This document shows, piece after piece, positions 28,914-64,000 of a stretch of 64,000 nt of DNA (the stretch's first letter is position 1; every line of letters starts with the position of its first letter). The stretch is from an uncultured Myxococcales bacterium. GTDB lineage: Bacteria > Myxococcota > B64-G9. A model generated the notes under the pieces. It saw only the letters and a list, made by a program, of their open reading frames with translations, ran no database searches and was not told where the DNA came from. Location of the stretch: NCBI GenBank assembly GCA_964454005.1, contig CAYVQE010000005.1, forward strand, positions 4,404 through 68,403, in the 5' to 3' direction. The position numbers and the translations under genes are program-made.

Positions 28914-28977
28914 AAAAAACCGCGCAGTACTACTGAGAATCTTTGCGGGACGCGAAGATTCTCGCGGTTAGTAGTAC
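28914..28977 (-). terminator. Long bulged hairpin plus T-run (minus-strand intrinsic terminator between convergent genes)
   Basis: Positions 28927-28947 pair with 28951-28977 as 13 bp plus 8 bp around a 6-nt bulge. On the minus strand the hairpin is followed by gcgcggTTTTTTgg. It overlaps the last codons of the minus gene. Confidence 0.5.
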
Positions 28978-29597: not shown

Positions 29598-29599
29598 GG

Positions 29600-46559: not shown

Positions 46560-46592
46560 GTCGTTCTCCGTCGTCGCCTGCGGCGGTCGGCC

Positions 46593-47960
46593 CTAGAAGC
46601 CGGCCGTCAGGCCGAGCCAGCCGCCGTAGTGCCAGCCGCCGGCGAAGGCCAGCCGGCCGCCGGCCGCGCCCGGTGCGGCATAGCGGGTGAAGCCGTTGTC
46701 GCCGGCCAGGCCCTCGAAGTTGAAGTCCTCGCGCAACAGCCGCGCCACCAAGCGCAGCTCCAGATGGCGCAGGAATCCCAGCAGCCGGCCGCGCTCGGGC
46801 AGCAGGCGCAGCCGCAACCCGATCCGGGCCCACCAGCTCAGGCAGGCAGCCAGGCTGCGATCGGCTGTCCAGTAGGCGCCGGCAGGACCGCCGGGGTAGT
46901 CGTCGCGGTAGAAGTTGGCCCGGATGCGGTGGGCCGCGCCGCCGTGAAGCTCGAGCGTCAGCCGGCGGCCCAGCCGCTGCAGCCAACCCAGCTGGGCCTG
47001 GCTATGCTCGACCCGCCAAGAACCGGTGCCCCAGCCGGCCCCCAGCTCGGCGGCCGCGCTCCAGGTCGGGATGGCGAAGCGCGCCCGCAGCAGCGCGCCC
47101 CAGCGCATCCGCGCCGGCGGGTGCTGTTCCGGCCGCGCGCGCGGGACGGTGGCCGGGGCCGGGCCGTCCACCGCCGGCCAGTGGCTCCACAGGGTGACCC
47201 AGCGGTAGGGGCTCTGCATGAAGCCCTCCTCGAGCAGGCCGGCCAACTCCAGGCGCAGGTTGATGCCCGGCAAGAAGCCCTGCTCGACGGCGGCCACGAT
47301 GCGATCGCTGGTCCGTTCGGCGGCGACCGCTTCCAGGGCCGGGCCCTGGCCGGCCGCCAGCCGCAGCCGCTGCATGGTTCGGCGGTAGGCCAGCTCGACC
47401 ACGGTGTCGCTGCCCAGCACCAGGGTGCGGGCGCTGATGGCCGGTGCGTGGACGTCGCCGTCGAAAGCGGTGCGGTAGCGGTAGCCGGCCCGCAGTACGC
47501 TGGTGCCGTCGTCGTAGACCAGCGCGGCCACCGGCCCGTGGGCCAGCCGGTCGAGTTGCAGCCGCCCGCGGAAGCCGTCGAAGCGGAAGATCCGCCGCCG
47601 CTCGAGGCTCTGGGTATAGCCGGCCTCCAGGCCGAAGCCGGCCGCCAGCTCGACCGCCGCCCGGGCCTCGGTGTCGAACCACAGGCCGTCGGCCTGGGCG
47701 CCGGGCTCGGCTGCGGTGCGCACCCGCAGCCGGGCGGTGTCGGTCGGCAGCGGGCGCAGGTCGGGCTCCGGCGGCGCGCTCGGCGCGTGCACCGGGCGGC
47801 CCGGCTCGAAGCGCATCAGCGGATCGGCCAGCACCTCGCGCGCCACCAACCGCTCGGCGCTGCAGCCGGCGGTGGCCAGCGCGACCAGGCCGGCCAGACC
47901 GACCACTCCGATCAACCCGCCGGCCGGGCGCCGGCCGCGGCGGCGGCCGGGCGGCTTCAG
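46593..47960 (-). CDS. Predicted outer-membrane beta-barrel lipoprotein, unknown family (start uncertain)
   Basis: The lipobox is VALATAGC and the C-terminus is aromatic (...LGLTAGF). The listed ORF 46593..48674 overlaps the whole upstream gene. Plausible starts are CTG 47960, TTG 47915 or GTG 47906. Confidence 0.5.
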   Translation of the reverse strand: MKPPGRRRGRRPAGGLIGVVGLAGLVALATAGCSAERLVAREVLADPLMRFEPGRPVHAPSAPPEPDLRPLPTDTARLRVRTAAEPGAQADGLWFDTEARAAVELAAGFGLEAGYTQSLERRRIFRFDGFRGRLQLDRLAHGPVAALVYDDGTSVLRAGYRYRTAFDGDVHAPAISARTLVLGSDTVVELAYRRTMQRLRLAAGQGPALEAVAAERTSDRIVAAVEQGFLPGINLRLELAGLLEEGFMQSPYRWVTLWSHWPAVDGPAPATVPRARPEQHPPARMRWGALLRARFAIPTWSAAAELGAGWGTGSWRVEHSQAQLGWLQRLGRRLTLELHGGAAHRIRANFYRDDYPGGPAGAYWTADRSLAACLSWWARIGLRLRLLPERGRLLGFLRHLELRLVARLLREDFNFEGLAGDNGFTRYAAPGAAGGRLAFAGGWHYGGWLGLTAGF

Positions 47961-48661
47961 CTGGAGTCCAGCGGCAGCCAAAAACCGACCCCCAGGCTGA
48001 GCACCAGGTTGTTGGTCACGGCGTCGGAGCCGAGCAGCTCCTGGACGGTGATCTGATCGCGCAGATCCAGCCGCAGCGACAACCAGCTGGTGGTGAAGAT
48101 CTTGATCCCGGCGCCGAAGCTGTAGGTCAGCCCCTTGGCGGTGCGGCTGTCGGTCACCCCGGCGCCGGCGGTGAGGTAGATGTCGAAATGGGGGATCAGC
48201 GTGCGGAACAGCATGAACTTGCCGTGGATCGGGTGCCAGACCAGGTTGCCGCTGTAGATGCGCGCCGTATGATCCGCCAGCACCCGGTAGCCGCTGACCC
48301 GCTCGACCGGCCGCCGGACCTTGGACGACAGCCAGGTCATGCCGAAGCGCGCCTCGATGGCGAAGCTCTCGTCGATGTGGAAGGTATAGTTGATGCCCGC
48401 CAGCGGCGCCGCCCCCATCACGTCGCTGGCGTAGACCCCGCCCGCCAGACCGATCTCGTGGCGCAGGCTCTTGATGAAGTTGCGCCGGGCCAACCCCTTG
48501 CGACCGCCCTGGTCGGTCTCGGGCGGCTCCGGGCAGCGGGACCGGCCGGCCGCCGGGACCAGGCAGAGCGCGAGAAACAGACCGAGCAGGCCGAACGCCG
48601 GCCAACGCCGGCGGTGGATGGCGGCGTGTTCGGCAGGGCTGATCGGGTGGTGGCGGTTCAT
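47957..48661 (-). CDS. GltA/GltB-type outer-membrane beta-barrel protein
   Basis: It shares blocks with the 56622 and 57392 genes: HFDIYLTAGAGV versus FHFYLVAGAGV and VDFYLTAGGGV, and WLSLRLDLRDQ versus WSLRIEIRDH and WFAIRLEIRDY. Confidence 0.65.
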   Translation of the reverse strand: MNRHHPISPAEHAAIHRRRWPAFGLLGLFLALCLVPAAGRSRCPEPPETDQGGRKGLARRNFIKSLRHEIGLAGGVYASDVMGAAPLAGINYTFHIDESFAIEARFGMTWLSSKVRRPVERVSGYRVLADHTARIYSGNLVWHPIHGKFMLFRTLIPHFDIYLTAGAGVTDSRTAKGLTYSFGAGIKIFTTSWLSLRLDLRDQITVQELLGSDAVTNNLVLSLGVGFWLPLDSS

Positions 48662-48692
48662 CGGCGGCTCGCATCCCTTCCGGCGTCCGGTA

Positions 48693-49469
48693 TCAAAACG
48701 ACAGCATCAGCCCCGCGCTGAAGCTGAACACGCCGACCAGCTCCTCGGCGTCGAAGGCCAGCAGCTGCCGGGCATCGAGCCGCAGGCCGAAGCCGCCGCG
48801 CAGCGCCAGCAGCAGGCCACCGCCGGCGCTGACCAGCGGGCGGGTGCTGGCGGCGAACAGGGCGTTGCCGCGGTGGGGCAGGGTGGTCGCCGCCCCGCCG
48901 CCGACGGCGATGAACGGCACCAGGCAACGCCAGGGACCCACCGCCACCAGCAGCTCGGCGCCGTAGATCAGCACGCTGCCCAGGTGGCCGGCCGACTGGC
49001 CCAGCACGGCCTCGATCATCCAGTGCCGGCTCGGCTGGTAGCCGAGCCGCAGGCTGAACAGGCCGTCGCGATCGAGCACGCCGCCGGCCAGGGTGGCGCT
49101 GAGCGCGCCGCCGGCCAGCTGCTCGGTGGCCAACAGGTGCTCGAACAGCCAGCGCTCGACCGCGCCCGGACCGGTCGGATCGGCCACCTCGAAGGGCCAC
49201 ACCAGCTCGGCCAGCACCCAACCGCTGATGCCCCGGGCCAGCCGGATTCGGTACCAGTCGCCATCCGGGGCCCGATCGAGGGCCTCGAAGACCTGGCCGC
49301 GACCCACCCGGCCGACCTCGCGGAAGCTGCCGCCGGGGCCGGCGCGCACCGGCACGCTGGGGGCCATGGCCCGCAGATGTACATCACGGCCGGCCAGATC
49401 GGCCGCCCAGCCGGCGGCCGCCTGGACGAGCAGCCCGAGTAGAACGATCGGGACGGCGATCGGCCTCAT
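48693..49469 (-). CDS. SH3b-domain protein fused to a GltA/B-type beta-barrel
   Basis: After the signal peptide comes an SH3_3-like segment (VPVRAGPGGSFREVGRVGRGQVFEALDRAPDGDWYRIRLARGISGWV). Barrel blocks follow (FIAVGGGAAT, GFGLRLDARQL), ending in ...LMLSF. Confidence 0.6.
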   Translation of the reverse strand: MRPIAVPIVLLGLLVQAAAGWAADLAGRDVHLRAMAPSVPVRAGPGGSFREVGRVGRGQVFEALDRAPDGDWYRIRLARGISGWVLAELVWPFEVADPTGPGAVERWLFEHLLATEQLAGGALSATLAGGVLDRDGLFSLRLGYQPSRHWMIEAVLGQSAGHLGSVLIYGAELLVAVGPWRCLVPFIAVGGGAATTLPHRGNALFAASTRPLVSAGGGLLLALRGGFGLRLDARQLLAFDAEELVGVFSFSAGLMLSF

Positions 49470-49960
49470 CGGTCACCACCGGCATCGCGCAGCCAGTCCA
49501 GGATGGCGACCAGTTGTTCGTCGCCGAGCGCATCGCCGCCCGGGTGGGCGGGCTGCTCGCCGCCGCCCCACAGCAGCAGCGGGCTGAGTTCGGGGCGGTC
49601 CAGCAGGCAGTAGCCGAGCACCGTGTAATAGCCGCTACGGAAGGGCTCTTCCAGCTCCCCGGGGTGGGCCACCACGGTGTCGGGCGGCAGCGCCTGGGCG
49701 GCCGCGACGAGCTGCAGCCCGCCCGGCCGGCCGTGGCAGGCGGCGGTGGCGCAGCCGTCGGCCAGGGCGGGGTGGATGTGCAGCGCGTAGCTGCGGGCGT
49801 CGGGCAGCTGCTTCGACGCCGCCAGGCTCGAACGGCCCGGATCGACCGGTCCGCAGCCCGCTGCCGCGGCCAACCCGGCCAGCAGCAGCGTCCAGGCCGC
49901 AGCCACCGGGCGCCGGTGCGCCGGGCTCGTGGAACCACTGTGGGCGTCGCATGGCGGCAA
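49466..49960 (-). CDS. Lipoprotein, first gene of the minus-strand Glt/Nfs-like operon
   Basis: The gene has a TTG start with an AAGGTG RBS and the lipobox LAAAAGC. It contains the motif IHPALADGCATAACHG and is coupled by ATGA to the next gene. Confidence 0.5.
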   Translation of the reverse strand: MPPCDAHSGSTSPAHRRPVAAAWTLLLAGLAAAAGCGPVDPGRSSLAASKQLPDARSYALHIHPALADGCATAACHGRPGGLQLVAAAQALPPDTVVAHPGELEEPFRSGYYTVLGYCLLDRPELSPLLLWGGGEQPAHPGGDALGDEQLVAILDWLRDAGGDR

Positions 49961-50132: not shown

Positions 50133-50212
50133 GAGCGCTCGTTCGTGAACCGGGGGGGGCCACGGGCGTTCCAAGGGGGTGTGCGCGTTCGCGCGACAAG
50201 GAGGTTTTGCGG

Positions 50213-51553: not shown

Positions 51554-53113
<1,560 letters not shown>

Positions 53114-53135
53114 CGGGAGCGGGAGGACGGTCTCG

Positions 53136-53957
53136 ATGGCAACCAAGCTCGAAAAGGCCCAGTATCGATACGAGGCCCTGCTGCGCGATTTGGGCGAGAA
53201 GGCCGAGATGGTCGGCGAACTCGAACGGGCGGCCCCTGGCGTGCTCAAGAGCTACCGCCGCGCCAAGGACAACCTGTCCGACCGCAAGCTCGAACTCGAG
53301 TTCATCGAGAGCGAGATCGAGGGGCTGCAGGCCGAGCAGGGCCAGGCCGACGAGCAGGCCGAGGCGCGCTACGAGGAAGTCAAGGCCGAGATCGCCGACC
53401 TGGAGGAGCTGGTCGATATCAAGTACGGCAAGTCGAACCCGATCAAGAAGAAGCTGGCCGGGGCGCAGTACGACTTCAAGTTCGTCGAGAAATCGCTGGC
53501 CGACGAGCAGAACAAGGTCAAGGAGAAGAAGCGCCGCGAGGAGATGAAGGCCGCCCGCGAGCACGAGGACAACGTCAAGAAGCTCAAGATCGAGATCCTC
53601 AAGCGGCGCAAGGCCATCGTGGACATGAAACGCGAGATCAAGGAACTCGAGGGCCCGGCCAAAAAGATGGAGAAGGAACTCGAGGAACTCAAGGTGGAGG
53701 CCGGCGAACTCGAGCAGCAGCTGGAATCCGACCGCGCGGAAAACGACCAGAGCGACCTGTTGGCCGAGCTCGAGCGCCAGAAGGCGGCCAAGGAAAAAGA
53801 GGTCCAGCGGGCCGGGCAGCACCTCAAGGACGTGTTGGCCGACGTCGGCGAGGACCTCTACGAGCGGCGCAAGAACCACACCGTGCTCAACAAGTACTAC
53901 GCCGACCTGGACGCGGTGGCCGAGATGATCGATAAGCTCCAGGGGCAGGCGGGATGA
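53136..53957 (+). CDS. Coiled-coil protein
   Basis: The 273-aa protein is E/K/L-rich with heptad character throughout. A GGGAGG RBS is present. Confidence 0.6.
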   Translation: MATKLEKAQYRYEALLRDLGEKAEMVGELERAAPGVLKSYRRAKDNLSDRKLELEFIESEIEGLQAEQGQADEQAEARYEEVKAEIADLEELVDIKYGKSNPIKKKLAGAQYDFKFVEKSLADEQNKVKEKKRREEMKAAREHEDNVKKLKIEILKRRKAIVDMKREIKELEGPAKKMEKELEELKVEAGELEQQLESDRAENDQSDLLAELERQKAAKEKEVQRAGQHLKDVLADVGEDLYERRKNHTVLNKYYADLDAVAEMIDKLQGQAG

Positions 53958-53979
53958 GCCGATCGCGAGGACATCCGGC

Positions 53980-55575
53980 ATGAGGCGCCGGTCCATTCCG
54001 CTGGTGGCGCTGCTGGTACCGCTGGCCGCCGCGGCCGGCTGCACCGAGCCCGGTCCCAGCGAGAAAAAGCCCTGGGTGCTGGTGCTGGCCGAGAAGCCGA
54101 CCCACCGAGCGGCCGCTCGGGCGGCCGAGCGGCTGGTCGAGCAGGATCCGGCTTTCGAGGGCAGCAGCGCCCTGTCGCTGCGCGCGGCCAACGGCGGGCG
54201 GCGCCACCTGTTGGTCTCGGCGCCGCGGGCCGCCCGCGCCGGGCTGGACGCGTTGGCCGACCAGCTGCCCGGGGCGGCCGGGCGGCGGCTGGAGCGGCTG
54301 GACGTGCGCCGGGTCGAGCGGCTCGATCCCGAGCGGCTGGCCATCATCTCGCCGCCCGAGGACTGCGAGACCATCGAGCGGCTGGCCCGCATGCTGCCGC
54401 GGCCGGTCGACGAGCGGCTGGTGTCGTTTCTGATCCGCGCCGAGACCGACGGCGACAGCGGGCCCGGGGCACTGGCCCGCTCGGCCGCAGCGGGTTTTTC
54501 CCAGGCCTTCGGTGAGCTGGGTTGGCGGGCCACCGCCGAGGCGACCTACCGTGCCGCCGGCGGCGAGGGGCGCTGCCATGTGTTCATCGGTTGGTTGGCC
54601 GCCGGCGGCGACGCCGAGGCGGCCCTGCGCGCCAGCTACAACTTCCTGCTGGCCCGGGTGCATCCGGAGCCGGCGGCCGCAGCGGCCGAAGCGGGGGCCG
54701 AGCCGGCCAAGCGCCAGCGGCGGCGCAAACGCCGGCGCCGCCAGCGGCCGGAGCCCGAGTCGGCGGAGCCCTTGCCGCTGGTGCCGGTACAGCAACCCCT
54801 GCCCGAGCGGGTGGCGGGCCGCATGCCTTGGGGAGAGACCGAGCTGATCGCGCTCGAACGGGTGGGGTTGCGCGTTTTGCCGCCGGCCGGCCGCCTGCGC
54901 CGCCAGCGGCTGGCCGCGACGCCACCGCCCTGGCGGGCCCGGCTGGCCGCGGCCCCGGGGGGCCGGGCGGTGGTGCTGCTGCTGAGCGACGATGCGCAGC
55001 TGGCCGATCGCTTGTCGCGACCCGGCGGCCTGGGCGAGTCGACCGGATTAGCCCACTCCAGTTGGCTGCAGGCCATCTGGGCCGCCCTGCCCGAGGTGGC
55101 CATCCCGGGCGATCGCTTCGCCTATGCCGCTATGCAACGGCTCGATAGCTGGCTGCCGGCCAGGATGCGCCGCCGCTTGAAGCTGGCCGCGGCGGCCGGC
55201 CGGCCGGTGCTGCAGGCCGGCTACCGGGCCGAGAAGGGCCGGGCCGGTTGGCAGCTCAACTGGTTCCGCACCGCCGACGCGGCCACCGCCGGCCGGTTGT
55301 TCGAGCAAGCGCTGGTGGCGCCGCGCCAGGCCCTGATCAAGCGGGTGATGGAGGCCGAACGGGTGGTGCGCTACGAGGTCGGCCTGAACCTGCGCGAGAC
55401 CGGCGACGTCCAGGCCTGGCACCTGATGGGTGCGCGGCGCGGCCGGCTGCAGGAGCTGTACTTCCAGCGCGGCCGGGAGGTGTGGCTGATCCGGGCCCGG
55501 ACCGAATCCAGCGGTGGCCTGCCGGCCGGCGATCTGCTCGGCCGCGTCGAGATGCTGGCCATCTGGGACCGCTGA
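53980..55575 (+). CDS. Lipoprotein, unknown function
   Basis: The lipobox is PLAAAAGC. The 531-aa protein has an internal poly-Arg/Lys patch (KRQRRRKRRRRQR). Confidence 0.55.
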   Translation: MRRRSIPLVALLVPLAAAAGCTEPGPSEKKPWVLVLAEKPTHRAAARAAERLVEQDPAFEGSSALSLRAANGGRRHLLVSAPRAARAGLDALADQLPGAAGRRLERLDVRRVERLDPERLAIISPPEDCETIERLARMLPRPVDERLVSFLIRAETDGDSGPGALARSAAAGFSQAFGELGWRATAEATYRAAGGEGRCHVFIGWLAAGGDAEAALRASYNFLLARVHPEPAAAAAEAGAEPAKRQRRRKRRRRQRPEPESAEPLPLVPVQQPLPERVAGRMPWGETELIALERVGLRVLPPAGRLRRQRLAATPPPWRARLAAAPGGRAVVLLLSDDAQLADRLSRPGGLGESTGLAHSSWLQAIWAALPEVAIPGDRFAYAAMQRLDSWLPARMRRRLKLAAAAGRPVLQAGYRAEKGRAGWQLNWFRTADAATAGRLFEQALVAPRQALIKRVMEAERVVRYEVGLNLRETGDVQAWHLMGARRGRLQELYFQRGREVWLIRARTESSGGLPAGDLLGRVEMLAIWDR

Positions 55576-55671: not shown

Positions 55672-56328
55672 ATGTCGACAGCCATCTTGGGAAAGAAGCT
55701 CGGGATGACCCGGATCTTCGACGAGACCGGCAACCAGATCCCCGTCACCGTCGTCCAGGCCGGGCCGTGCCCGGTGGTGCAGAAGCGCACCCCGGCCAAG
55801 CACAAGTACAGCGCCATTCAGATCGGCTTCGAGACCGTGCCCGGCCGCAAGCTCAACAAGCCCGGCCGGGGCGTGTTCGAGAAGGCCGACATGAAGCCCC
55901 TGCGCCACCTGCGCGAGGTGCGCATGAGCCCCGAAGATGTCGATGGCTACAAGGTGGGCGACAGCATCGACGTGTCGGTCTTCGCCGCCGGCGATCGGGT
56001 CGACGTCATCGGCACATCCAAGGGCCGCGGCTTCCAGGGCGTGGTCAAGCGCTTCGGCTTCGGCGGCAACACCAAGACCCGCGGCACCCACGAGCACCGC
56101 CGGCATCCGGGCTCCATCGGCAACTGCGAGTTCCCCGGCCGGGTGTTCAGGGGCCGCCGGCTGCCGGGGCAGATGGGCGACAAGCGGGTGACCACCCAGA
56201 ACCTGACCGTGGTCGACGTCGACGCCGGCGACAACCTGCTGATGCTGCGCGGGGCGGTGCCCGGCGCCCGCGGCGGGTTGGTCATGGTCCGCAAGGCCGT
56301 CAAGCGGCGCGGTCCCGCGCCGAGCTGA
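55672..56328 (+). CDS. rplC: 50S ribosomal protein L3 (isolated from the S10 operon)
   Basis: L3 motifs seen are ILGKKLGMTRIF, GTSKGRGFQGVVKR, HPGSIG and GQMGDKRVTTQNL. A GAGGAG RBS is present. Confidence 0.93.
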   Translation: MSTAILGKKLGMTRIFDETGNQIPVTVVQAGPCPVVQKRTPAKHKYSAIQIGFETVPGRKLNKPGRGVFEKADMKPLRHLREVRMSPEDVDGYKVGDSIDVSVFAAGDRVDVIGTSKGRGFQGVVKRFGFGGNTKTRGTHEHRRHPGSIGNCEFPGRVFRGRRLPGQMGDKRVTTQNLTVVDVDAGDNLLMLRGAVPGARGGLVMVRKAVKRRGPAPS

Positions 56329-56621: not shown

Positions 56622-57368
56622 ATGCGTAATCGCCGAAGACTACTCGTGTTCGTGGGAGTCTGTTGCCTGTTGCTGGGCAGCGTTCCGAACTCCTTGCTGG
56701 CGGCCGAACCGGCGGTGGCCAAACGCCTCTACGATCTGGGCGGACGTCTGGAGCTGTCGCTGGCCCCGGCCTTCTCCATCTTCGACAAGTACACGCAGCA
56801 CGTCGGAGCCTCGGTGGGGCTGGCCTACTACTTCAACGATTACATCGGGCTCGAGGTCGAGGGGGGCTACGCCTTCCTGTCCGGCGACGTGAGCCTGCTC
56901 GACGAGATCCTCGAGGTGGGCGTGGACAACATCTCGGGCATCGAGCGGCTGCCGCTGACCGACCTGAAGTACACCACCTGGTGGGCCACCGGCGGGCTGG
57001 TATTCAGTCCGCTGTACGGCAAGCTCAACCTGTCGGCCGAACTCGATTTCAACTTCCACTTCTACCTGGTGGCCGGGGCCGGGGTGGCGGGCTACAAGTA
57101 CTCGCAGCTGCGGTGGCCCACCGACACCGAGTTCCGCAAGGTCGAGAAGGACGTGGGCGCCCAGCCCACCTTTTACGTCGGCGGCGGCCTGCGCATGCAC
57201 TTCACCCAGAGTTGGAGCCTGCGCATCGAGATCCGCGATCACTTCTACTACGACGAGTACGAGGCCCAGACCAAGTCGGCCGGCGGCAGCACGCCCGATC
57301 CGAAGAAGATCGAGGACTTCGTACACATCACGCTGATGCGGCTCGGCGTGTGCTACTCCTTCTTCTGA
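56622..57368 (+). CDS. GltA/NfsA-type outer-membrane beta-barrel protein
   Basis: The start MRNRRRLLVFVGVCCLLLG gives a signal peptide. Barrel blocks LVFSPLYGKLNL, FHFYLVAGAGVAGY and WSLRIEIRDHFYY are present, and the protein ends ...VCYSFF. Confidence 0.7.
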   Translation: MRNRRRLLVFVGVCCLLLGSVPNSLLAAEPAVAKRLYDLGGRLELSLAPAFSIFDKYTQHVGASVGLAYYFNDYIGLEVEGGYAFLSGDVSLLDEILEVGVDNISGIERLPLTDLKYTTWWATGGLVFSPLYGKLNLSAELDFNFHFYLVAGAGVAGYKYSQLRWPTDTEFRKVEKDVGAQPTFYVGGGLRMHFTQSWSLRIEIRDHFYYDEYEAQTKSAGGSTPDPKKIEDFVHITLMRLGVCYSFF

Positions 57369-57391
57369 TATCCGAGGCGAGGGAAAAGACC

Positions 57392-58177
57392 ATGAAGGCA
57401 AAAGCCCTGTTCGCGGCCGCTGCGGTGCTCCTGGCAGGCGCCATCGCGCGCGCCGAGAGCCCCAACGAGCGCATCCACGTGCTGCAGAAGCGCGACTACT
57501 CGGTGAAGAACAAGCTCGAGGTCAGCGTGTTCAGCGGCCCCTCGGTCGGTGACGTGTTCACCCAGCAGGTCGGGTTGGGACTGGCGCTGGACTACCACTT
57601 CGACGAAGCCTTCGCCATCGAGCTGTCCTGGCTGACCTGCAAGGTGCCGTTCTACGACGGTGACCAGGCCCAGCCGGGCCAGTACGAAGGCGACGACCTG
57701 CGCTGGGGCGCCTGGTACACCGACGCCTACGACGAGGTCAAGAACGACGCCCAGCTCAGCCCGTCGAACGCCGACCTGGCCATGATCACCAACTACATCG
57801 GTCTGAACGTGCTGTTCAGCCCGCTGTACGGCAAGTGGACGCTGTTCAATCGCGGCCTGGGCCACGTCGACTTCTACCTGACCGCCGGCGGCGGGGTGGC
57901 CGGAACCGAGTTCCGCAACTCGCGCAAGCTGTGGCAGGACACCGGCACCTACTTCGTCGGCAACTTCGGCCTCGGCCTGCGCGTCTATCTGGCCCGCTGG
58001 TTCGCCATCCGGCTCGAGATTCGCGACTACGCCTTCGCCGCTCGGGTCAAGGAGGCCGACCAGACCGGCTCGACCGGCGAGGTCTCGACCAAGATCCGCA
58101 ACAGCCTGTTCGTCACCCTGGGTCTGAGCTTCCTGTTCCTCGGCGAGGAACCGGTCCAGATCTGGAGCCCGTACTGA
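57392..58177 (+). CDS. GltB/NfsB-type outer-membrane beta-barrel protein
   Basis: After the signal peptide MKAKALFAAAAVLLAGAIARA come the blocks VLFSPLYGKWTL, VDFYLTAGGGVAG and WFAIRLEIRDYAF. It is a paralog of the preceding gene. Confidence 0.7.
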   Translation: MKAKALFAAAAVLLAGAIARAESPNERIHVLQKRDYSVKNKLEVSVFSGPSVGDVFTQQVGLGLALDYHFDEAFAIELSWLTCKVPFYDGDQAQPGQYEGDDLRWGAWYTDAYDEVKNDAQLSPSNADLAMITNYIGLNVLFSPLYGKWTLFNRGLGHVDFYLTAGGGVAGTEFRNSRKLWQDTGTYFVGNFGLGLRVYLARWFAIRLEIRDYAFAARVKEADQTGSTGEVSTKIRNSLFVTLGLSFLFLGEEPVQIWSPY

Positions 58178-58215
58178 GGTCCGGGCGCGGACCCCGAGGG
58201 AGGTCGACGATTCCC

Positions 58216-59811
58216 ATGAGAACCTGCACCGCCCTGTTCGTCAGCCTGCTGGTGTCGCTGGGCGCCTTCGCCGTCCAGGCCCAGCCGGCCAGCCCGCTCA
58301 ACGAAGCCGTGGAGGCCTACAACGCCAACGATCTGCCCCGGGCCGCCGAGCTGTTCTACGAGGCCCGGATGACCGATACGGTGGTGGCCAATCGCGCCAA
58401 GGCCGAGTACTACCTGGGCCACAGCCTGTACAAGATGGGCCTGTACCAGTCGGCGTTGGCCTATTACAACGCGGTGTTCGTCCAGGGCCCGGCCCACCCG
58501 TACTACCTCAAGGGGGCCGAGGGTCTGATCAACGTGGCCGCCGAGCTGCGCGACGACACCCTGATCCCGTCGCAGATCAACAAGTTCTATAACCCGCAGG
58601 CCTTCGCCGGCATGGATCCGATGGCCCTGAGCCGGATCAACTTCCACGTCGGCCTGCTGCTCTACCGGCAGGAGAAGTACGACCAGTCGCTGGCCTTCCT
58701 GCAGGCGGTCGAGCAGGAGTCCAGCGTCTTCGCCAAGTCGCTCTTCCTGCAGGCCATCATCCATACCCGGCTGGGAGTGCGCTACGCCCGGGCCGGTGAC
58801 GAGGCCCGCACCCAGGCCGAGTACGACAAGGCGATCGCCCTGTTCGAGCAGATCGTCGGGCTGTCGGAGCGCACCGAGGAGGGTGCCCGGCGGGCCATGC
58901 AGCTCTACGAGGACGTGCACCGGTTGTGGCAGCTGTGCACGCTCAACCTGGCCCGCTCGTACTACGGCAAGGGCGACTTCGCCCGGGCCGTCCAGTATTA
59001 CAGCCGCATCCCGCGTTTCTCGCAGGACTGGGCCGCGGCCTTGTTCGAGATCGGTTGGGCCTTCTACATGCGCCAGGAGTACGGCCGGGCGCTGGGCGCG
59101 CTGCACACCCTGCACTCGCCCCACTTCGAGAACCTGTTCCACCCCGAGTCGTGGATCCTCAAGGCCACCATCTACTACCAGGTGTGCCTGTACGACGAGT
59201 CCATGGCCATGCTGGAGCACTTCCAAGAGAACTACGCCGCGATGATGCCCCTGATCAAGGAGCTGACCGAGGGCCCGCTGCCGAACGAGGCCTTTTCCGC
59301 GCTGCTGCTCAAGGACGAGCTTTCGGCCGACGACCCGCTGGCCGAGCTGCCGGAGTCGATCAAGCAGTACATCCTGAGCAACCCGCGGGTGGAGAACTTC
59401 CGCCACTTCCTGCGCAGCCTCGAGGCCGAGGCGGTGGCCATCCGCGAGCAGGACGAGTGGAAGGGCGAGCGCTTGGCCGAAGAGCTGCTGGGCGTGGTCA
59501 ACGTGCAGCGCAACCTGCTGCAGAAGACGGCCGGCGGCTTCGTCAAGGCCAAGCTGAAGCAGGCCTACCTCAACATCAGCAGCTACGTCAGCCACGCCAA
59601 GATGGTGGAGTTGGAGATCACCACCCGCCGGCGCAAGCTGGTGGCCGCCGGACACTCCGTCAGGGCCGAGCTGCGCGGCAAGCTGGCGCCTCGGCCGCGG
59701 GTGCCCGACGAGACCTACAACTACTGGAAGTTCGTCAAGGAGTACTGGCGGGACGAGCTGGGCTACTACGTCTACACCGTCCGCCGGGCCTGCCCCAAGC
59801 AGGCCCGGTAA
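58216..59811 (+). CDS. TPR/helical-repeat secreted protein (GltC/NfsC-like)
   Basis: The protein has a signal peptide and TPR-like helices (AEYYLGHSLYKMGLYQSALAYY). It is a positional and C-terminal-tail paralog of 44047..45924. Confidence 0.65.
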   Translation: MRTCTALFVSLLVSLGAFAVQAQPASPLNEAVEAYNANDLPRAAELFYEARMTDTVVANRAKAEYYLGHSLYKMGLYQSALAYYNAVFVQGPAHPYYLKGAEGLINVAAELRDDTLIPSQINKFYNPQAFAGMDPMALSRINFHVGLLLYRQEKYDQSLAFLQAVEQESSVFAKSLFLQAIIHTRLGVRYARAGDEARTQAEYDKAIALFEQIVGLSERTEEGARRAMQLYEDVHRLWQLCTLNLARSYYGKGDFARAVQYYSRIPRFSQDWAAALFEIGWAFYMRQEYGRALGALHTLHSPHFENLFHPESWILKATIYYQVCLYDESMAMLEHFQENYAAMMPLIKELTEGPLPNEAFSALLLKDELSADDPLAELPESIKQYILSNPRVENFRHFLRSLEAEAVAIREQDEWKGERLAEELLGVVNVQRNLLQKTAGGFVKAKLKQAYLNISSYVSHAKMVELEITTRRRKLVAAGHSVRAELRGKLAPRPRVPDETYNYWKFVKEYWRDELGYYVYTVRRACPKQAR

Positions 59812-59847
59812 CGAACACCAGTCACCGGGAGCGTGCGGAGGACATCC

Positions 59848-62800
59848 ATGCGCCTGATTTTTTCGATGAGTTGGTTCGTGCTGCTGTTGGCTCTGATCTT
59901 CGGTCTGGACGGCCTGACCTTGCCCGAAGCCCGGGCGGCCGCGGCGGCTGAATCGCAGCTGTTGGCCGGCGACGGGGAGTTGGTGGCCAAGGCCCGGCGC
60001 AAGAAGCGCAAGCGGAAACGGCGCAAGGGCAAGAAAAAAAGTGGTCGCAAGCACGAGTTCTCCGAGGTGCCCGACTTCGGCGACGACAAGAAGAAGGAGA
60101 AAGAGGAGCCGGAGGAGGAGGAGCCCAGCGGACCGGCCAAGATCAAGCTGCCCATGGTGGAGCAGAAGCGGGCCGAGGGGGCCACGCTCGAAGAGAAGCT
60201 GCTGGAGCAGGAGATCAAGCAGCTCAAGGAGATCATCCGCGAGACGCCGGATGGCCCGGCCAAGTGCGATCTCTACTTCCGGCTGGCCGAGCGCTACTAC
60301 GAGAAGGCGCGGGCGATCTACTATGCCGAGATGCAGGCCTACGACAAGAAGATCGAGGCCTGGATGACGGCCCGCGAAACCGACCCGGACGCGACCGAGC
60401 CCAAGCTCGACAACCGCAAGAGCCAGGTCTACACCGACCAGGCCATGGCCATCTACAAGACCATCCTGAAGAAGTGCAAGAACTACCACCGGCGTGACGA
60501 AGTGCTGTTCACCATGGGCTACAACCTGTACGAGAGCGGCGAGAAGTCGGAAGGCGTCAAGATGTACTGGGAGCTGATCAAGAGCTTCCCCGAGAGCCGC
60601 TTCGTGCCGGACGCCTACCTGGCCATGGGCGAGCACTACTTCAACAACAACGACGTCAGCAACGCCAAGAAGGCTTACGACCGGGCGTTGGAGTTCAAGG
60701 ACTCCAAGGTCTACACCTTCGCCCTCTACAAGCTGGGTTGGTGCGACTACAACCTGGGCGAGTACGAGAAGGCGATCGACAAGTTCCAGCAGGTGGTCGA
60801 GCTGGCCCAGCGCGAGGCGCAGAAGGCCGGCGGCGACAAGAACAAGATCCAGCTGCGGCGCGAGGCGCTGCAGGACATGGTGCTGTCCTATGCCCAGATC
60901 GACGCGCTGGACTCGGCCGAGCGCTACTACCTGTCACAGGTAGGCAAGCAGGGCGCGCTGGAGTACCTGACGCGGCTGGCCAAGACCTACGAGAAGCAGG
61001 GCAAGGCCGAGATGACGTTGAAGTCCTTCCGGCGGCTGCTCAACGAGTACCCCAACAATCCGGACTGCCCGTCGTTTCACAACTCGGTCGTGATGGCCTA
61101 CCGCAAGATGAACCAGCGCAACAAGGTCAAACGCGAGATCAACCGCCTGATCGACCAGTACAAGCCCGGCTCGACCTGGGCCGAGGTCAACAAGAGCAAC
61201 AAGACGGCCATCAAGAAGGCCAACGCGCTGGTGGAGGCCTCGCTGCGCGATCTGGTCACCTCCTACCACAAGGAGGCCCAGCAGACCAAGGATTGGGACA
61301 CCTACAACCTGGCCCGCTCGATCTACAAGAAGTACCTCGATACCTTCCCCGACAGCGAGTACGCCTACAAGCTGCGCTGGTACTACTCCGACATCCTGTA
61401 CAAGATGCGCAACTTCTACGTGGCCGCGATCCAGTACTCGACCATGGTCGACAACAAGCCCGAGGGGGTCTACTCCTCCGAGGCGGCCTACAACGCGGTG
61501 CTGTGCTGGGAGAAGTGCCTGCAGCTGCGCGACTCCGAGGGCAAGGATTGCCGCAAGTGGGATCCCAAGTCGCGCAGCGGACGCAAGCTGGAGAAAGAGG
61601 CATCCAAGGAGATCAAGAAGAAGAAGATCGACTTCACCGAGAACGTGACCAAGGAGATGCTGGTCAAAAAGGAGATCCCCTTCTTCGAGCAGAAGTTCCT
61701 GGCCGCGGCCGACGCTTACTCCGAGGTGGCGCCGGATCACGACATGTACATCCCGATCCGTTTCAAGAGCGCTTTCATCTTCTACAAGTACCGCCACTTC
61801 GGTGAGATGGCCAAGCGCTTCGGCGAGATCATCGAGCGCCACCCGCGCAACCAGTACGCGCTCAAGGCGGCCCGGCTGTCGCTGAACACCCTGTACATGA
61901 AGGCCAAGAACAAGGACGCCAGCGAGGCCGAGCGCAACGAGGCCTGGCAGGCCGTCAACCACTGGGCCAAGACCTTCAAAAAGAACGAGGTGCTGGCGCG
62001 CTCCAAGGTGGCCCGCAAGGCCAAGTTCGCCAAGGAAATGCAGAGCCTGATCGAGGAGTCGGGCTACAACCTGGCGCTGGCCTTGCGCGACAAGGATCCG
62101 CTGGCGGCGGCCAAGCGCTTCGACGCCTTCGTCGACAACTACCCCAAGAGCAAGTACGCCCACCGGGCGCAGTACGCGGCCATAGTCATCTACGACGAGG
62201 CTGACCAACTCGACCTGGCCATCCGGGCGGGCAAGCGGCTGCTTGAGGATTACCCGGACTCGGACCGCTACAACCAGACCATCGGCTTTTTGGCCACCTT
62301 CCACGATCGGGTGGCCGATTTCGCCACCTCGGCCCGCTACAACGAGATGTACTTCGAGAAGTGGCTCGAGCAGGAGGGCAAGAAGAAGAAGAAGAAACGG
62401 CGCCGGCGGCGCCGGCGGCGCAAGAAGGCCGAGGAGAAAAAGGACGTCATCTTGATCACCGACAAGGAAGCCTCGGACGCGCTCTACAACGCCGCGCTGC
62501 TGCGCGAGTCGATGGGCCAGTACCCCAAGGCCATCGCGCTCTACTCGCGCTACATCAAGAATTTCCCCGACAACAAGGACACCCACGATCTGTTCTACCG
62601 CATCGGCGAGATCTACGCCCGGCAGGATAACTGGCGCAAGGCGGACATCATCTACGAGGGCTACCTCGACAAGTACGCCGACCGTTCCAATCCGGGGCGC
62701 ATGTTGGCGGTAACCTACAAGCACGCCATGGCGCTGCGCAAGATGAAGAAGGTGGCTGAATCCGACAAGCTGCTGGACAAGATCATCGAACGCTACCACA

Positions 62801-63444
62801 AGCTGGACGAGAAGGCGCGCACGGCCGAAGCCCGACAGGCGGTGGCCCACGCCCGCTTTCTGCAGGTGGACAAGGAGTTCGGCGAGTACATGGCGCTGAA
62901 GCTGGTGCTGCCGCCGCGGACGCTCAAGCGCAACCTGTTCAAGAAGATCGAGTTGCGACCCAAGCTGCAGGAGAAGTACCAGGAGATCGTATCCTACAAG
63001 GATCCCGACTGGTCGATCGCCGCCCTGGTGCGGGTGGCCCAGATCAACCAGGATCTGGCCGACGCAATGCTCGAGGCGCCGGTGCCGGCCGGGCTGACCC
63101 CCGAGCAGGCCGACATCTACATCCAGGAGCTGCAGAAGCAGGCTTTGCCGTTGGAGGAGACGGCCCTGAACTTCTACCGCAAGGCCATCGCGGTCTCGTC
63201 GAACAAGGGCCTGTACAACGAGTGGACGATCAAGGCGCAGGAGCTGCTGCGCAAGTACGAACCCAGCAAGTACCCCGAGCCCTACGTCGCCAGCCAGGTC
63301 TCGACCGAGTTCTTCTACGAAGGCGAGCCGCGGTTCGAGCGGGTCGAGGTGCCGCCGCAGCCCGAGCCGGCCCCGACACCGCCCGCTGCCGGCACGGCCG
63401 GGGGCGAGCCGAAGGCGGCCAGCGCCGCCCGGCCCTCGATGTAG
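59848..63444 (+). CDS. Large TPR scaffold protein (GltD/AgmU/NfsD-like)
   Basis: ATG 59848 lies 6 nt after GGAGG (the listed ORF starts at GTG 59833). The protein has a signal peptide and about 1200 aa of TPR-like repeats. It is a paralog of 40968..44060. Confidence 0.75.
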   Translation: MRLIFSMSWFVLLLALIFGLDGLTLPEARAAAAAESQLLAGDGELVAKARRKKRKRKRRKGKKKSGRKHEFSEVPDFGDDKKKEKEEPEEEEPSGPAKIKLPMVEQKRAEGATLEEKLLEQEIKQLKEIIRETPDGPAKCDLYFRLAERYYEKARAIYYAEMQAYDKKIEAWMTARETDPDATEPKLDNRKSQVYTDQAMAIYKTILKKCKNYHRRDEVLFTMGYNLYESGEKSEGVKMYWELIKSFPESRFVPDAYLAMGEHYFNNNDVSNAKKAYDRALEFKDSKVYTFALYKLGWCDYNLGEYEKAIDKFQQVVELAQREAQKAGGDKNKIQLRREALQDMVLSYAQIDALDSAERYYLSQVGKQGALEYLTRLAKTYEKQGKAEMTLKSFRRLLNEYPNNPDCPSFHNSVVMAYRKMNQRNKVKREINRLIDQYKPGSTWAEVNKSNKTAIKKANALVEASLRDLVTSYHKEAQQTKDWDTYNLARSIYKKYLDTFPDSEYAYKLRWYYSDILYKMRNFYVAAIQYSTMVDNKPEGVYSSEAAYNAVLCWEKCLQLRDSEGKDCRKWDPKSRSGRKLEKEASKEIKKKKIDFTENVTKEMLVKKEIPFFEQKFLAAADAYSEVAPDHDMYIPIRFKSAFIFYKYRHFGEMAKRFGEIIERHPRNQYALKAARLSLNTLYMKAKNKDASEAERNEAWQAVNHWAKTFKKNEVLARSKVARKAKFAKEMQSLIEESGYNLALALRDKDPLAAAKRFDAFVDNYPKSKYAHRAQYAAIVIYDEADQLDLAIRAGKRLLEDYPDSDRYNQTIGFLATFHDRVADFATSARYNEMYFEKWLEQEGKKKKKKRRRRRRRRKKAEEKKDVILITDKEASDALYNAALLRESMGQYPKAIALYSRYIKNFPDNKDTHDLFYRIGEIYARQDNWRKADIIYEGYLDKYADRSNPGRMLAVTYKHAMALRKMKKVAESDKLLDKIIERYHKLDEKARTAEARQAVAHARFLQVDKEFGEYMALKLVLPPRTLKRNLFKKIELRPKLQEKYQEIVSYKDPDWSIAALVRVAQINQDLADAMLEAPVPAGLTPEQADIYIQELQKQALPLEETALNFYRKAIAVSSNKGLYNEWTIKAQELLRKYEPSKYPEPYVASQVSTEFFYEGEPRFERVEVPPQPEPAPTPPAAGTAGGEPKAASAARPSM

Positions 63445-63456
63445 CGGGGGCGCGGC

Positions 63457-64000
63457 ATGAGCCAGCCACGACTGCGAGGGATGCGAACCATGCGTAGCCA
63501 GGTCACCGTATCGCTGTTGCTGGGCACCGCCCTGATTCTCACCGGCTGCCCCGAGAAGAAGGTGGTCAAGCCGACTGAGAAGAAGGTGGTGCGGATCATC
63601 TTCCCTGAAGAGCTGTACAACCGGGGTATCGATGCGCTGGAGCAGGGCAAGCCCGAGCGGGCGCTGGACCTGCTGCAGAAGGCCATCGCCAAGAACGAGA
63701 AGCGGCCCGAGCCGGCCCCGATGGTCGATGCCCACTACAACCTGGGTCTGCTCCAGCTGCGCCGGGGCGATCTCGAGGCCGCCGAGCTGGCCTTCAAGAC
63801 GACCCTGCAGAAGGAGCCCGAGCACCGCGACGCTCTGTTGAACCTGGGGGTGGTCTACAAACGGCAGCAGGAGTACGACCAGGCCATCGAGCACTACCGC
63901 CAGGCGCTGGAGAAGGTGCCGCGCGACCCGGAGATCATGAACAACCTGATCGTGGTCTACCGGCTGGCGAAGAAGTACGAGCAGGCCGAGAAGACCGGTC
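63457..64000 (+). CDS. TPR lipoprotein (GltE/NfsE-like), 3' end off the window
   Basis: The lipobox is LILTGCPEKKVV (compare AAAGCPAKREVV in 39808..40971). TPR units AHYNLGLLQ, LLNLGVVY and MNNLIVVY are present. Alternative ATG starts are at 63481 and 63490. Confidence 0.65.
   Translation, partial: MSQPRLRGMRTMRSQVTVSLLLGTALILTGCPEKKVVKPTEKKVVRIIFPEELYNRGIDALEQGKPERALDLLQKAIAKNEKRPEPAPMVDAHYNLGLLQLRRGDLEAAELAFKTTLQKEPEHRDALLNLGVVYKRQQEYDQAIEHYRQALEKVPRDPEIMNNLIVVYRLAKKYEQAEKTG

What the first reader, a model, noticed from the sequence alone, without database searches (positions are those of the whole stretch)
56622..64000. Second Glt/Nfs-like cluster in contiguous A-B-C-D-E order with contrasting composition
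Five + strand genes (two small barrels, a GltC-like protein, a GltD-like protein and a GltE-like lipoprotein) repeat the architecture of the minus-strand cluster and continue beyond the window. Each protein has a recognisable paralog in the other cluster, with shared blocks quoted in the feature list. The + strand copies are Lys/Glu/Tyr/Asn-rich and their DNA is visibly less GC-rich, whereas the minus-strand copies are extremely Arg/Ala-rich. Two such machines 7 kb apart with different compositional histories suggest either acquisition of one copy by transfer or long-standing functional divergence, as with glt versus nfs in M. xanthus.
Basis: partly seen in the sequence, partly recalled or inferred. 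Interest (0 to 1): 0.65.

Follow-up and report, generated by a model that had tools for sequence, protein, structure and literature searches.

The report
Nfs-type envelope machine operon, native paralogue
The five genes are the first part of an eight-gene operon for a cell-envelope-spanning machine of the kind Myxococcus uses to wrap its spores, sitting beside an old and very different second copy; this is an ordinary, already described arrangement for this phylum, and nothing points to gene transfer.

Summary
The five + strand genes exist as described: two OMP_myx_plus beta-barrels, a GltC-like TPR protein, a 1198-aa GltD-like TPR protein, and the start of a GltE-like TPR lipoprotein. Contigs 94% identical in DNA show the operon continuing with F, G (FHA plus TonB-C-like) and H. 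By gene order, by a conserved stand-alone rplC upstream, and by trees, it belongs with the Myxococcus nfsA-H operon. It is not the gliding glt system: it fails the GltC/E/F/G equivalog cut-offs that a true Anaeromyxobacter glt cluster passes.

The minus-strand cluster is a distant paralogue (D proteins 26% identical). It is of the Haliangium type and is built like the M. xanthus G4/G5 clusters, with an FHA-less G and extra genes. It is also complete, running from 49960 down to 28968.

The GC contrast is real but lies only at codon positions 1 and 2. GC3s is 0.93 versus 0.92, and codon usage matches the background (r = 0.99). Lys-richness is shared across the whole Nfs-type clade. Both clusters sit side by side in relatives down to about 61% protein identity.

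Recent transfer and recent duplication are therefore rejected, and ancient divergence is supported. This is a new member of a known kind and of modest interest.

The parts
56622..57368 (+). A2: outer-membrane beta-barrel (NfsA/GltA-type), signal peptide, C-terminal ...YSFF
   Evidence: TIGR04565 OMP_myx_plus 94.6 bits (cut-off 60) and PF13505 34 bits. Same 248-aa gene in L001.
57392..58177 (+). B2: second outer-membrane beta-barrel (NfsB/GltB-type), signal peptide
   Evidence: TIGR04565 103.5 bits. 30% identical to A2 and 26% to B1.
58216..59811 (+). C2: secreted TPR protein, NfsC/GltC-type
   Evidence: NF033756 gliding_GltC 239.6 bits over profile 105-620, below the equivalog cut-off of 450. 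M. stipitatus NfsC scores 210 and true GltC 687.
59848..63444 (+). D2: 1198-aa secreted TPR protein, NfsD/GltD-type, Lys-rich, with two polybasic tracts (aa 45-69 and 841-866). An alternative GTG start lies at 59833.
   Evidence: Homologues. 26% identical to D1 over 1032 aligned positions. Lies inside the 100%-bootstrap Nfs-type clade. Tracts.
63457..64000 (+). E2: N-terminal third of a TPR lipoprotein (NfsE/GltE-type), lipobox LTGC, cut by the window end. Relatives start at the Met at 63490.
   Evidence: TPR families and NF033758 GltE 41 bits on the fragment. The full 545-aa orthologue in L001 scores 98 bits. 35% identical to E1.
55672..56328 (+). Stand-alone rplC (ribosomal protein L3), the conserved upstream neighbour of nfs-type operons. 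It serves as a synteny anchor and is not part of the machine.
   Evidence: PF00297. The L001 copy scores TIGR03625 260 bits, cut-off 143. The same neighbour is seen in Myxococcus, Archangium and low-GC MAG loci.
51554..55575 (+). Conserved spacer genes between the two clusters: Ser/Thr kinase with PEGA domain (51554-53113), coiled-coil protein (53136-53957), and a 531-aa protein of unknown function (53980-55575).
   Evidence: Pfam hits. Same genes and order in relatives at 61-95% identity. Any role in the system is an inference only.
39527..49960 (-). Cluster 1, first part: Z (49466-49960), A1 SH3+barrel (48693-49469), B1 (47957-48661), Y barrel (46593-47915), X (45921-46559), C1 (44047-45924), D1 (40968-44060), E1 lipoprotein (39808-40971), F1 (39527-39811).
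   Evidence: NCBIfam: B1 TIGR04565 122 bits, C1 GltC 58.5, E1 GltE 126. The Y orthologue in L009 hits DUF3570. Same order in L007 and L009.
28968..31638 (-). Cluster 1, second part: G1 (30241-31638, GltG-like without FHA), W1 (29600-30244, unknown), H1 (28968-29615, GltH/CglE-like barrel).
   Evidence: tblastn of L007/L009 genes. NF033760 GltG 133.8 bits from profile position 206, AgmX/PglI C-terminal domain 96 bits, CglE 48.6 bits.

Best explanation
Window 56622-64000 holds genes A to E of an eight-gene nfsA-H-type operon in an uncultured Myxococcota bacterium from microbial mats. The operon encodes a Glt/Nfs-class complex that spans the cell envelope. Its predicted parts are outer-membrane beta-barrels (A2, B2, and H beyond the window), periplasmic TPR scaffolds (C2, D2, the lipoprotein E2), a small secreted protein F, and an inner-membrane protein G. 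G has a cytoplasmic FHA domain and a periplasmic TonB-C-like (AgmX/PglI) domain.

By analogy with M. xanthus, G would couple the complex to a proton-driven TolQR/ExbBD-like Agl motor encoded elsewhere. The complex would then be dragged along the envelope and carry a surface polymer with it. In Myxococcus that polymer is the Exo spore-coat glycan. In this organism the cargo and the physiological output are unknown. My estimate is about 45% coat or surface-glycan organisation, 35% gliding, 20% something else.

The cluster is native to the genome. It is the positional and phylogenetic orthologue of nfs. It is an ancient paralogue, not a recent duplicate or a transfer, of the minus-strand cluster, which is a complete machine of a different class with an FHA-less G.

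The lower GC of cluster 2 reflects a clade-wide amino-acid composition rich in Lys, Tyr and Asn, expressed through the same codon usage as the rest of the genome.

Shown here: gene content, homology, synteny, tree position, composition. Inferred: subunit locations, motor coupling, cargo.
For: Continuation E-F-G-H is seen in contigs collinear with the window at 94% DNA identity. There, F matches CglF/GltF (61.7 bits), G matches GltG (305 bits) with FHA and the AgmX/PglI C-terminal domain, and H matches CglE/GltH (138.7 bits, above its cut-off).

Synteny rplC-A-B-C-D-E-F-G-H is shared with the M. stipitatus and M. qinghaiensis nfs operons, with Archangium, and with low-GC Bdellovibrio-like MAGs.

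Bit scores against the Glt equivalog models (C/E/F/G/H): cluster 2 gives 240/98/62/305/139, M. stipitatus Nfs gives 210/102/69/343/206, and true Anaeromyxobacter Glt gives 687/260/128/782/119.

In the NJ tree of 65 D proteins, D2 lies inside a 100%-bootstrap clade with Myxococcus NfsD, and GltD lies outside it. The concatenated C+D+E+G tree (1967 positions) gives the same result with 100% support.

Native status: GC3s and RSCU, and the same two-cluster layout in relatives at 61-95% identity. Lys-richness is clade-wide.

Mechanism is taken from the literature. [quoted passage not shown] Paralogous clusters G3 (nfs), G4 and G5 exist in M. xanthus (PMC3169522).

Weak sign of transcription: short contigs of a salt-lake metatranscriptome lie on B2, D2 and E2.
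Against: No motor genes (MotA/TolQ/ExbB or ExbD families) were found in the Pfam or NCBIfam scans of the window's larger predicted genes, which did not cover every ORF; their presence in the genome is untested.

F, G and H were seen only in relatives, not in the window itself.

M. xanthus GltD itself was not retrieved. Glt is represented by one Anaeromyxobacter cluster on a long branch, so long-branch attraction could hide a true position of Glt inside the Nfs-type clade.

The trees are distance-based only.

B2 (261 aa) is much shorter than Myxococcus NfsB (412-424 aa).

Most relatives are MAGs with unknown phenotypes. Spore formation in this lineage is unknown, so a functional equivalence to Nfs is not established.

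The RNA evidence consists of contigs at 90-99% identity from another habitat, and DNA carry-over cannot be excluded.
Confidence: 0.8

Rival explanations
1. One of the two clusters, most plausibly the lower-GC cluster 2, was acquired by horizontal transfer from a lower-GC donor. This would explain the compositional contrast.
For: Cluster 2 DNA is 6-13 points lower in GC than cluster 1. In the trees its clade is sister to clusters from low-GC (36-43% GC) Bdellovibrio-like MAGs, with 72% bootstrap and 92%. An ancient inter-phylum exchange, in either direction, therefore cannot be excluded. Luciano et al. document transfers of the core complex.
Against: GC3s is 0.931 in cluster 2, 0.920 in cluster 1 and 0.905 in the background. 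RSCU correlates with background at r = 0.993. A real foreign-looking island in the same window shows GC3s 0.754 and r = 0.865. The cluster occupies the same site, next to rplC, in relatives down to 63% identity and even in Myxococcus. The Lys-rich composition is shared by all Nfs-type D proteins whatever the host GC.
Confidence: 0.05
2. Cluster 2 is this organism's gliding-motility machine. Functionally it would be a Glt, used with an Agl motor to move cells over surfaces in mats, and it would have no role in spore-coat assembly.
For: Luciano et al. propose that any bacterium with AglRQS plus GltD, E, F, G, C, A and B is a potential glider. Bdellovibrio glides without GltH, I, J or K. Cluster 2 has A-H with an FHA-bearing G. 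Its closest non-family relatives are in Bdellovibrio-like MAGs. Nfs-type operons are spread far beyond known spore formers. The habitat is surface-attached.
Against: It fails the GltC, GltE, CglF and GltG equivalog cut-offs, which a true glt cluster passes. No GltI-like giant TPR gene, GltJ or GltK lies next to it in relatives; a response regulator and a hybrid kinase/GGDEF gene follow H instead. It groups with Nfs and not with Glt.
Confidence: 0.3
3. The two clusters are recent tandem (inverted) duplicates that diverged quickly.
For: They lie 6.7 kb apart in divergent orientation and share the order B-C-D-E-F-G-H.
Against: The D proteins are only 26% identical, and the A pair is undetectable by BLAST. 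Each D has closer relatives in other orders than in its neighbour: D1 with Haliangium at 33%, D2 with the rplC-linked MAG cluster protein P0021 at 38%. The two fall in separate 100%-supported clades. They differ in architecture: FHA in G, the extra genes Y, X and W, and SH3 on A1.
Confidence: 0.01
4. The genes are generic TPR and outer-membrane proteins that sit together by chance and do not form a Glt/Nfs-type system.
For: Most Pfam hits are generic TPR repeat families. D2 also matches YbgF and BamD models.
Against: There are specific hits to the GltC, CglF, GltG, CglE and OMP_myx_plus models. Eight-gene synteny is conserved across the phylum. D-protein E-values reach 0 to 1e-140 against proteins in nfs operons.
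Confidence: 0.01

Closest known systems
Myxococcus xanthus Nfs system (nfsA-H, MXAN_3371-3378; cluster G3 of Luciano et al. 2011)
   Same: Eight genes in the order A-B-C-D-E-F-G-H in one operon, with a stand-alone rplC upstream. G carries FHA plus a TonB-C-like domain. D, C, E and G fall in the same 100%-supported clade. The distance to the Glt models is about the same.
   Different: Only about 30% identity in D and 33% in C. B2 is 261 aa against 412-424 aa. D2 carries two polybasic tracts that Myxococcus NfsD lacks. The host is an uncultured mat-dwelling lineage with no known sporulation. Cargo and phenotype are unknown.
Agl-Glt gliding machinery (gltA-K, clusters G1+G2, with the aglRQS motor)
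   Same: The same component families A-H, the same predicted envelope-spanning build, and the same presumed coupling through G to a TolQR-like motor.
   Different: It fails the NCBIfam equivalog cut-offs for GltC, GltE, CglF and GltG. C2 lacks the roughly 100-aa N-terminal part of GltC. No GltI, GltJ or GltK lies nearby. It lies outside the Glt branch in the trees.
M. xanthus G4/G5 paralogous clusters (gltD homologues MXAN_1922 and MXAN_1327; function unknown) and the Haliangium/Kofleriaceae clusters. These are the closest known to the minus-strand cluster.
   Same: Cluster 1 shares the X gene before C, an FHA-less G of about 450-470 aa, an extra gene between G and H, and weak GltC/GltH scores. 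D1 groups with the Haliangium-type D (79% bootstrap in the D tree, 100% in the concatenated tree).
   Different: D1 is not inside the Myxococcaceae G4/5-type clade. Cluster 1 has an SH3-fused A barrel and a DUF3570-type barrel Y. In this window it is split by a TonB-dependent receptor gene and a 5.3-kb insertion.
Core complex of Gammaproteobacteria and Geobacter (GltD-E-G-C with AglRQS in one operon; Luciano et al. 2011)
   Same: D homologues of about 938 aa from Woeseiaceae and other gamma lineages are detectable (24-26% identity to D1) and were used as the outgroup.
   Different: In those organisms the motor genes are in the same operon and the A, B, F and H components are absent.

Membership tests
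Glt/Nfs-class envelope-spanning complexes (Agl-associated 'transducer' clusters) | Large secreted TPR protein homologous to GltD/NfsD | tested here: met
   D2 is 1198 aa with a signal peptide. Its homologues include proteins in Myxococcus nfs operons (E about 1e-140). Tree position.
Glt/Nfs-class envelope-spanning complexes (Agl-associated 'transducer' clusters) | GltC-like TPR protein and GltE-like TPR lipoprotein flanking D | tested here: met
   C2 scores 239.6 bits on NF033756 over nearly the full length. E2 has a lipobox plus TPR repeats. The full-length orthologue scores 98 bits on NF033758.
Glt/Nfs-class envelope-spanning complexes (Agl-associated 'transducer' clusters) | Outer-membrane barrels of the GltA/GltB family | tested here: met
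   A2 scores 94.6 and B2 103.5 bits on TIGR04565, cut-off 60.
Glt/Nfs-class envelope-spanning complexes (Agl-associated 'transducer' clusters) | Bitopic G subunit with TonB-C-like/AgmX-PglI C-terminal domain, plus F and H | tested here: met
   These genes are not in the window. They were tested in the collinear 94%-identical contig L001. G: GltG 305 bits, myxo_SS_tail 104 bits, FHA. F: CglF 61.7 bits. H: CglE 138.7 bits.
Glt/Nfs-class envelope-spanning complexes (Agl-associated 'transducer' clusters) | A cognate AglRQS-type (TolQ/TolR-like) proton-driven motor in the genome | not testable with these tools
   No MotA/TolQ/ExbB or ExbD family hit on the larger predicted window genes that were scanned; not every ORF was scanned. 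The rest of the genome is not available. In M. xanthus the motor is also encoded elsewhere.
Nfs (nfsA-H of Myxococcus) | All eight genes contiguous in the order A-H | tested here: met
   A-E in the window, F-H in L001/L002/L070. The same order is seen in the M. stipitatus nfs operon L006.
Nfs (nfsA-H of Myxococcus) | Orthology to NfsC/D/E/G rather than to Glt or G4/G5 proteins | tested here: met
   NJ trees with 100% bootstrap for the clade that joins cluster 2 with Myxococcaceae Nfs and excludes Anaeromyxobacter Glt. The rplC neighbour is shared. Caveats: distance method only, a single Glt representative, and a long Glt branch.
Nfs (nfsA-H of Myxococcus) | Required for compact spore-coat (Exo glycan) assembly and expressed at sporulation | not testable with these tools
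   The organism is uncultured. This is known only for M. xanthus (PMC3858216).
Glt proper (gliding machinery, NCBIfam equivalogs) | Scores at or above the curated equivalog cut-offs for GltC (450), GltE (225), CglF (90) and GltG (650) | tested here: not met
   Cluster 2 scores 240, 98, 62 and 305. The positive control, the Anaeromyxobacter glt cluster, scores 687, 260, 128 and 782.
Glt proper (gliding machinery, NCBIfam equivalogs) | Presence of GltI (TPR protein of about 4100 aa), GltJ and GltK | tested here: not met
   They are absent from the 5-8 kb after H and from the region before A in relatives. GltI follows H in the true glt locus L152. Copies elsewhere in the genome cannot be excluded.
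G4/G5-type and Haliangium-type clusters (for the minus-strand cluster) | FHA-less G of about 450-470 aa, an X gene upstream of C, an extra gene between G and H | tested here: met
   G1 is 465 aa and aligns to the GltG profile only from position 206. The X and W genes are present. The same features are seen in the Myxococcus sp. Y35 locus L048 and in Haliangium-type loci.

The most novel reading that the evidence does not exclude
The rplC-linked A-H operon, of which cluster 2 is a member, could be the ancestral form of the whole Glt/Nfs group. It is conserved from Bdellovibrio-like MAGs to Myxococcus. In lineages such as this mat-dwelling one it may not serve sporulation at all. It may instead be a general motor-driven conveyor of a surface polymer, or a glider. 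The lineage-specific polybasic tracts of D2 could be the polymer-binding element, and the neighbouring PEGA-domain Ser/Thr kinase could control the machine through the FHA domain of G. On this reading Myxococcus nfs would be a late specialisation of that machine, and glt a fast-evolving offshoot.
Probability: 0.25. Interest if true: 0.5.

Novelty: new member of a known kind. Interest (0 to 1): 0.3.

Why it matters
Several paralogous Glt-like clusters per genome were described for Myxococcales in 2011, so the finding itself is expected. Three points add some value. First, a GC contrast between neighbouring paralogues can be purely an amino-acid effect and should not be read as transfer unless GC3 is checked. 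Second, the nfs-type operon and its rplC neighbour form a very old and widely conserved unit, reaching well beyond known spore formers. This bears on which function, gliding or coat assembly, came first. Third, this lineage keeps an nfs-type machine and a Haliangium/G4-G5-type machine side by side across at least family-level divergence. That makes it a compact locus for asking what the uncharacterised G4/G5 class does.

Tried and rejected
Exact-sequence look-ups of D2 with either start found nothing, so the window's own genome is not in that collection. Look-ups of P0110 and P0164 also failed.

Several attempts to obtain a true GltD went nowhere at first. P0021, named 'gliding motility protein U' by its source, sits in an rplC-linked A-H operon, so the name is only similarity-based. 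P0068 is likewise nfs-type. The Myxococcaceae locus L127 scores like Nfs and not like Glt. A true glt cluster was finally identified in Anaeromyxobacter, by the GltI gene that follows H and by its passing every equivalog cut-off. M. xanthus GltD itself was never retrieved.

A sigma-54 promoter search gave chance-level counts and nothing upstream of A2. The sigma-70 and terminator scan showed nothing between rplC and A2. Rfam found nothing at 49.9-56.7 kb.

The kinase association is inconclusive. Kinase-domain genes lie within 10 kb in 10 of 41 nfs-type loci and 18 of 40 G4/5-type loci, but the PEGA-type C-terminus is found only in close relatives. Ser/Thr kinases are abundant in this phylum and the loci are not independent.

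One script call produced nothing.

Full report
**What is in the sequence**

The window has 69% GC, so genes were called by third-position GC together with ORF translations.

From 56622 to the end of the window there are five intact + strand genes:
- A2, 56622-57368, 248 aa
- B2, 57392-58177, 261 aa
- C2, 58216-59811, 531 aa
- D2, 59848-63444, 1198 aa
- E2, from 63457 or 63490, cut by the window end

All five begin with signal peptides. E2 has a lipobox (L-T-G-C).

A2 and B2 pass the curated cut-off of TIGR04565 OMP_myx_plus. C2 aligns over almost the whole GltC model (239.6 bits). D2 and E2 are TPR proteins.

The window is collinear to its last base with contigs of 94% DNA identity. In these the operon continues as follows:
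- E, 545 aa
- F, 91-128 aa, CglF/GltF model 61.7 bits
- G, 659 aa, with FHA, GltG model 305 bits, and the AgmX/PglI C-terminal domain
- H, 230 aa, CglE/GltH model 138.7 bits

**The other cluster**

On the minus strand lie Z (164 aa), A1 (SH3 plus barrel), B1, Y (440-aa barrel; DUF3570 in the L009 orthologue), X (212 aa), C1, D1 (1030 aa) and E1 (lipoprotein).

Comparison with relatives shows that this cluster also continues:
- F1, 39527-39811
- a TonB-dependent receptor gene on the other strand
- a 5.3-kb stretch absent from the relative
- G1, 30241-31638, GltG-like but without the FHA part
- W1
- H1, 28968-29615, CglE model 48.6 bits

Pairwise identities between the clusters are low:

| Pair | Identity |
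|---|---|
| D1/D2 | 26% over 1032 aligned positions, E 5e-114 |
| E1/E2 | 35% |
| C1/C2 | 23% |
| B1/B2 | 26% |
| A1/A2 | no hit |

**Which known system each resembles**

Luciano et al. (PMC3169522) described five clusters in M. xanthus. These are the gliding clusters G1+G2 (glt), the nfs operon (G3, nfsA-H), and two further paralogous clusters of unknown function, G4 and G5.

I used NCBIfam's Glt equivalog models as a yardstick. The true glt cluster is from Anaeromyxobacter and was recognised by the 4102-aa GltI gene that follows H. It passes every cut-off.

| Cluster | C | E | F | G | H |
|---|---|---|---|---|---|
| True glt (Anaeromyxobacter) | 687 | 260 | 128 | 782 | 119 |
| M. stipitatus nfs | 210 | 102 | 69 | 343 | 206 |
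| Cluster 2 | 240 | 98 | 62 | 305 | 139 |
| Myxococcus G4/5-type | 66 | 120 | 32 | 159 (no FHA) | none |
| Cluster 1 | 58 | 126 | none | 134 (no FHA) | 49 |

Cluster 2 therefore behaves like Nfs, and cluster 1 like the G4/G5 class.

**Synteny**

Upstream of A2 lies a stand-alone rplC. The same arrangement, rplC followed by A-H, is found in several places:
- at the nfs operons of M. stipitatus and M. qinghaiensis
- in Archangium
- in several MAGs
- in MAGs of 36-43% GC labelled Bdellovibrio sp. or Deltaproteobacteria

In three of these loci, other genes lie between rplC and A: two in L090 and L150, and two on the opposite strand in L151.

**Trees**

An NJ tree of 65 D proteins (973 columns, 100 bootstraps, rooted on the roughly 938-aa gammaproteobacterial group) gives three results:
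- D2 lies inside a 100%-supported clade with all rplC-linked clusters and Myxococcus NfsD.
- Anaeromyxobacter GltD lies outside that clade.
- D1 lies in a separate 100% clade, sister (79%) to the Haliangium group.

The Myxococcaceae G4/5-type forms a third clade.

A concatenated C+D+E+G tree (26 loci, 1967 positions, 200 bootstraps) gives the same picture with 100% support at the key nodes. Because E and G lie outside the window, cluster 2 is represented in that tree by its 94%-identical relative L070.

Caveats: these are distance methods. Glt is represented by a single cluster on a long branch. M. xanthus GltD itself was not retrieved.

Haliangium and Kofleriaceae loci share cluster 1's architecture: B-X-C-D-E-(F)-G-W-H, with Y nearby.

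**Composition**

The GC contrast is real but lies entirely at codon positions 1 and 2. Codon-level measures are as follows:

| Gene set | GC3s | RSCU correlation with background |
|---|---|---|
| Cluster 2 | 0.931 | 0.993 |
| Cluster 1 | 0.920 | 0.991 |
| Background genes | 0.905 | (reference) |
| Ankyrin island at 34.5-36.9 kb | 0.754 | 0.865 |

The ankyrin island shows what a foreign segment looks like in this genome.

K/(K+R) is 0.46-0.86 in all Nfs-type D proteins, from hosts of 36-70% GC. It is 0.16-0.37 in D1 and its near relatives. Within the window, cluster 2 resembles conserved genes such as rplC, and cluster 1 resembles the Arg/Ala-rich majority.

Both clusters occupy the same divergent layout around the kinase / coiled-coil / unknown / rplC spacer in relatives at 93-95% protein identity and at 61-63%. 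Recent transfer and recent duplication are thus excluded, and old divergence is supported.

**Likely mechanism**

This part is inferred from the M. xanthus literature (PMC3858216; PMC3169522). There, the TolQR-like AglRQS motor interacts through AglR with GltG and NfsG. Movement of NfsD needs AglQ and the proton motive force. The complex carries the Exo glycan around the spore surface.

For cluster 2 the same build is predicted: barrels A, B and H in the outer membrane, TPR proteins C, D and E in the periplasm, and G in the inner membrane.

No motor genes turned up in the window genes scanned. The motor is also unlinked in Myxococcus.

Whether the output in this organism is coat assembly, gliding or something else cannot be decided. 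The organism occurs in microbial-mat metagenomes, and relatives occur in tidal-flat and sediment samples. A salt-lake metatranscriptome contains short contigs on B2, D2 and E2 and almost none on cluster 1 at 44-50 kb. That is only a weak hint of transcription.

**Verdict**

Of the two readings offered, long-standing divergence holds and transfer does not. The better analogy is nfs versus the G4/G5 or Haliangium class, not glt versus nfs. This is a new member of a known kind, of modest interest.

Noticed in passing
window 31700-36900: A 5.3-kb stretch is absent from the 92-94% identical relative L007. It carries a subtilisin-like protease gene (31827-34379, +), a Lys-rich 245-aa ORF (34486-35223, +) and an ankyrin-repeat protein gene (35359-36864, -). 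The ankyrin part has GC3s 0.75 and deviant codon usage. It looks like a recent insertion that splits the minus-strand cluster between F1 and G1.
   Followed up: partly
window 36916-39399 (+): A TonB-dependent receptor gene sits inside the minus-strand cluster between F1 and G1. It is shared with the 95% relative L007 but absent from the 61% relative L009, where F is followed directly by G.
   Followed up: partly
window 55672-56328 (+); L006, L141, L146, L081, L083, L090, L150, L151: A stand-alone ribosomal protein L3 gene has the highest GC3 in the window (0.95) and is a clear TIGR03625 match. It lies upstream of nfs-type operons from Myxococcus to low-GC Bdellovibrio-like MAGs. Whether it is the only rplC of these genomes or an extra copy was not determined.
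   Followed up: partly
window 59980-60054 and 62368-62445 (D2 residues 45-69 and 841-866): D2 has two polybasic tracts (for example GKKKKKKRRRRRRRRKK). They are kept in relatives down to 63% identity but are absent from Myxococcus NfsD, Anaeromyxobacter GltD and D1. They account for part of the strong AT skew at 60-63 kb.
   Followed up: partly
window 50104-50374 (+): A 53-aa basic ORF (MAEAKEGKRGTAGRDKAK...) lies behind a near-consensus promoter-like site (TTGACA-17-TATATT). It is 98% conserved in L007. The metatranscriptome run X23 has its deepest contig of the 44-64 kb stretch here. There is no Rfam match.
   Followed up: partly
window 51554-55575 (+): A Ser/Thr kinase with a C-terminal PEGA domain, a 273-aa coiled-coil protein and a 531-aa protein of unknown function lie between the two clusters in every relative examined (61-95% identity). 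A coiled-coil homologue also precedes rplC in Myxococcus. A link between the kinase and the FHA domain of G is conceivable but untested.
   Followed up: partly
window 4327-8316 (+): An MTTB-family trimethylamine methyltransferase, a DUF1638 protein and a RACo-type corrinoid activation protein lie together. This suggests methylamine or glycine-betaine-type methyl transfer, which is unusual to see annotated in Myxococcota.
   Followed up: no
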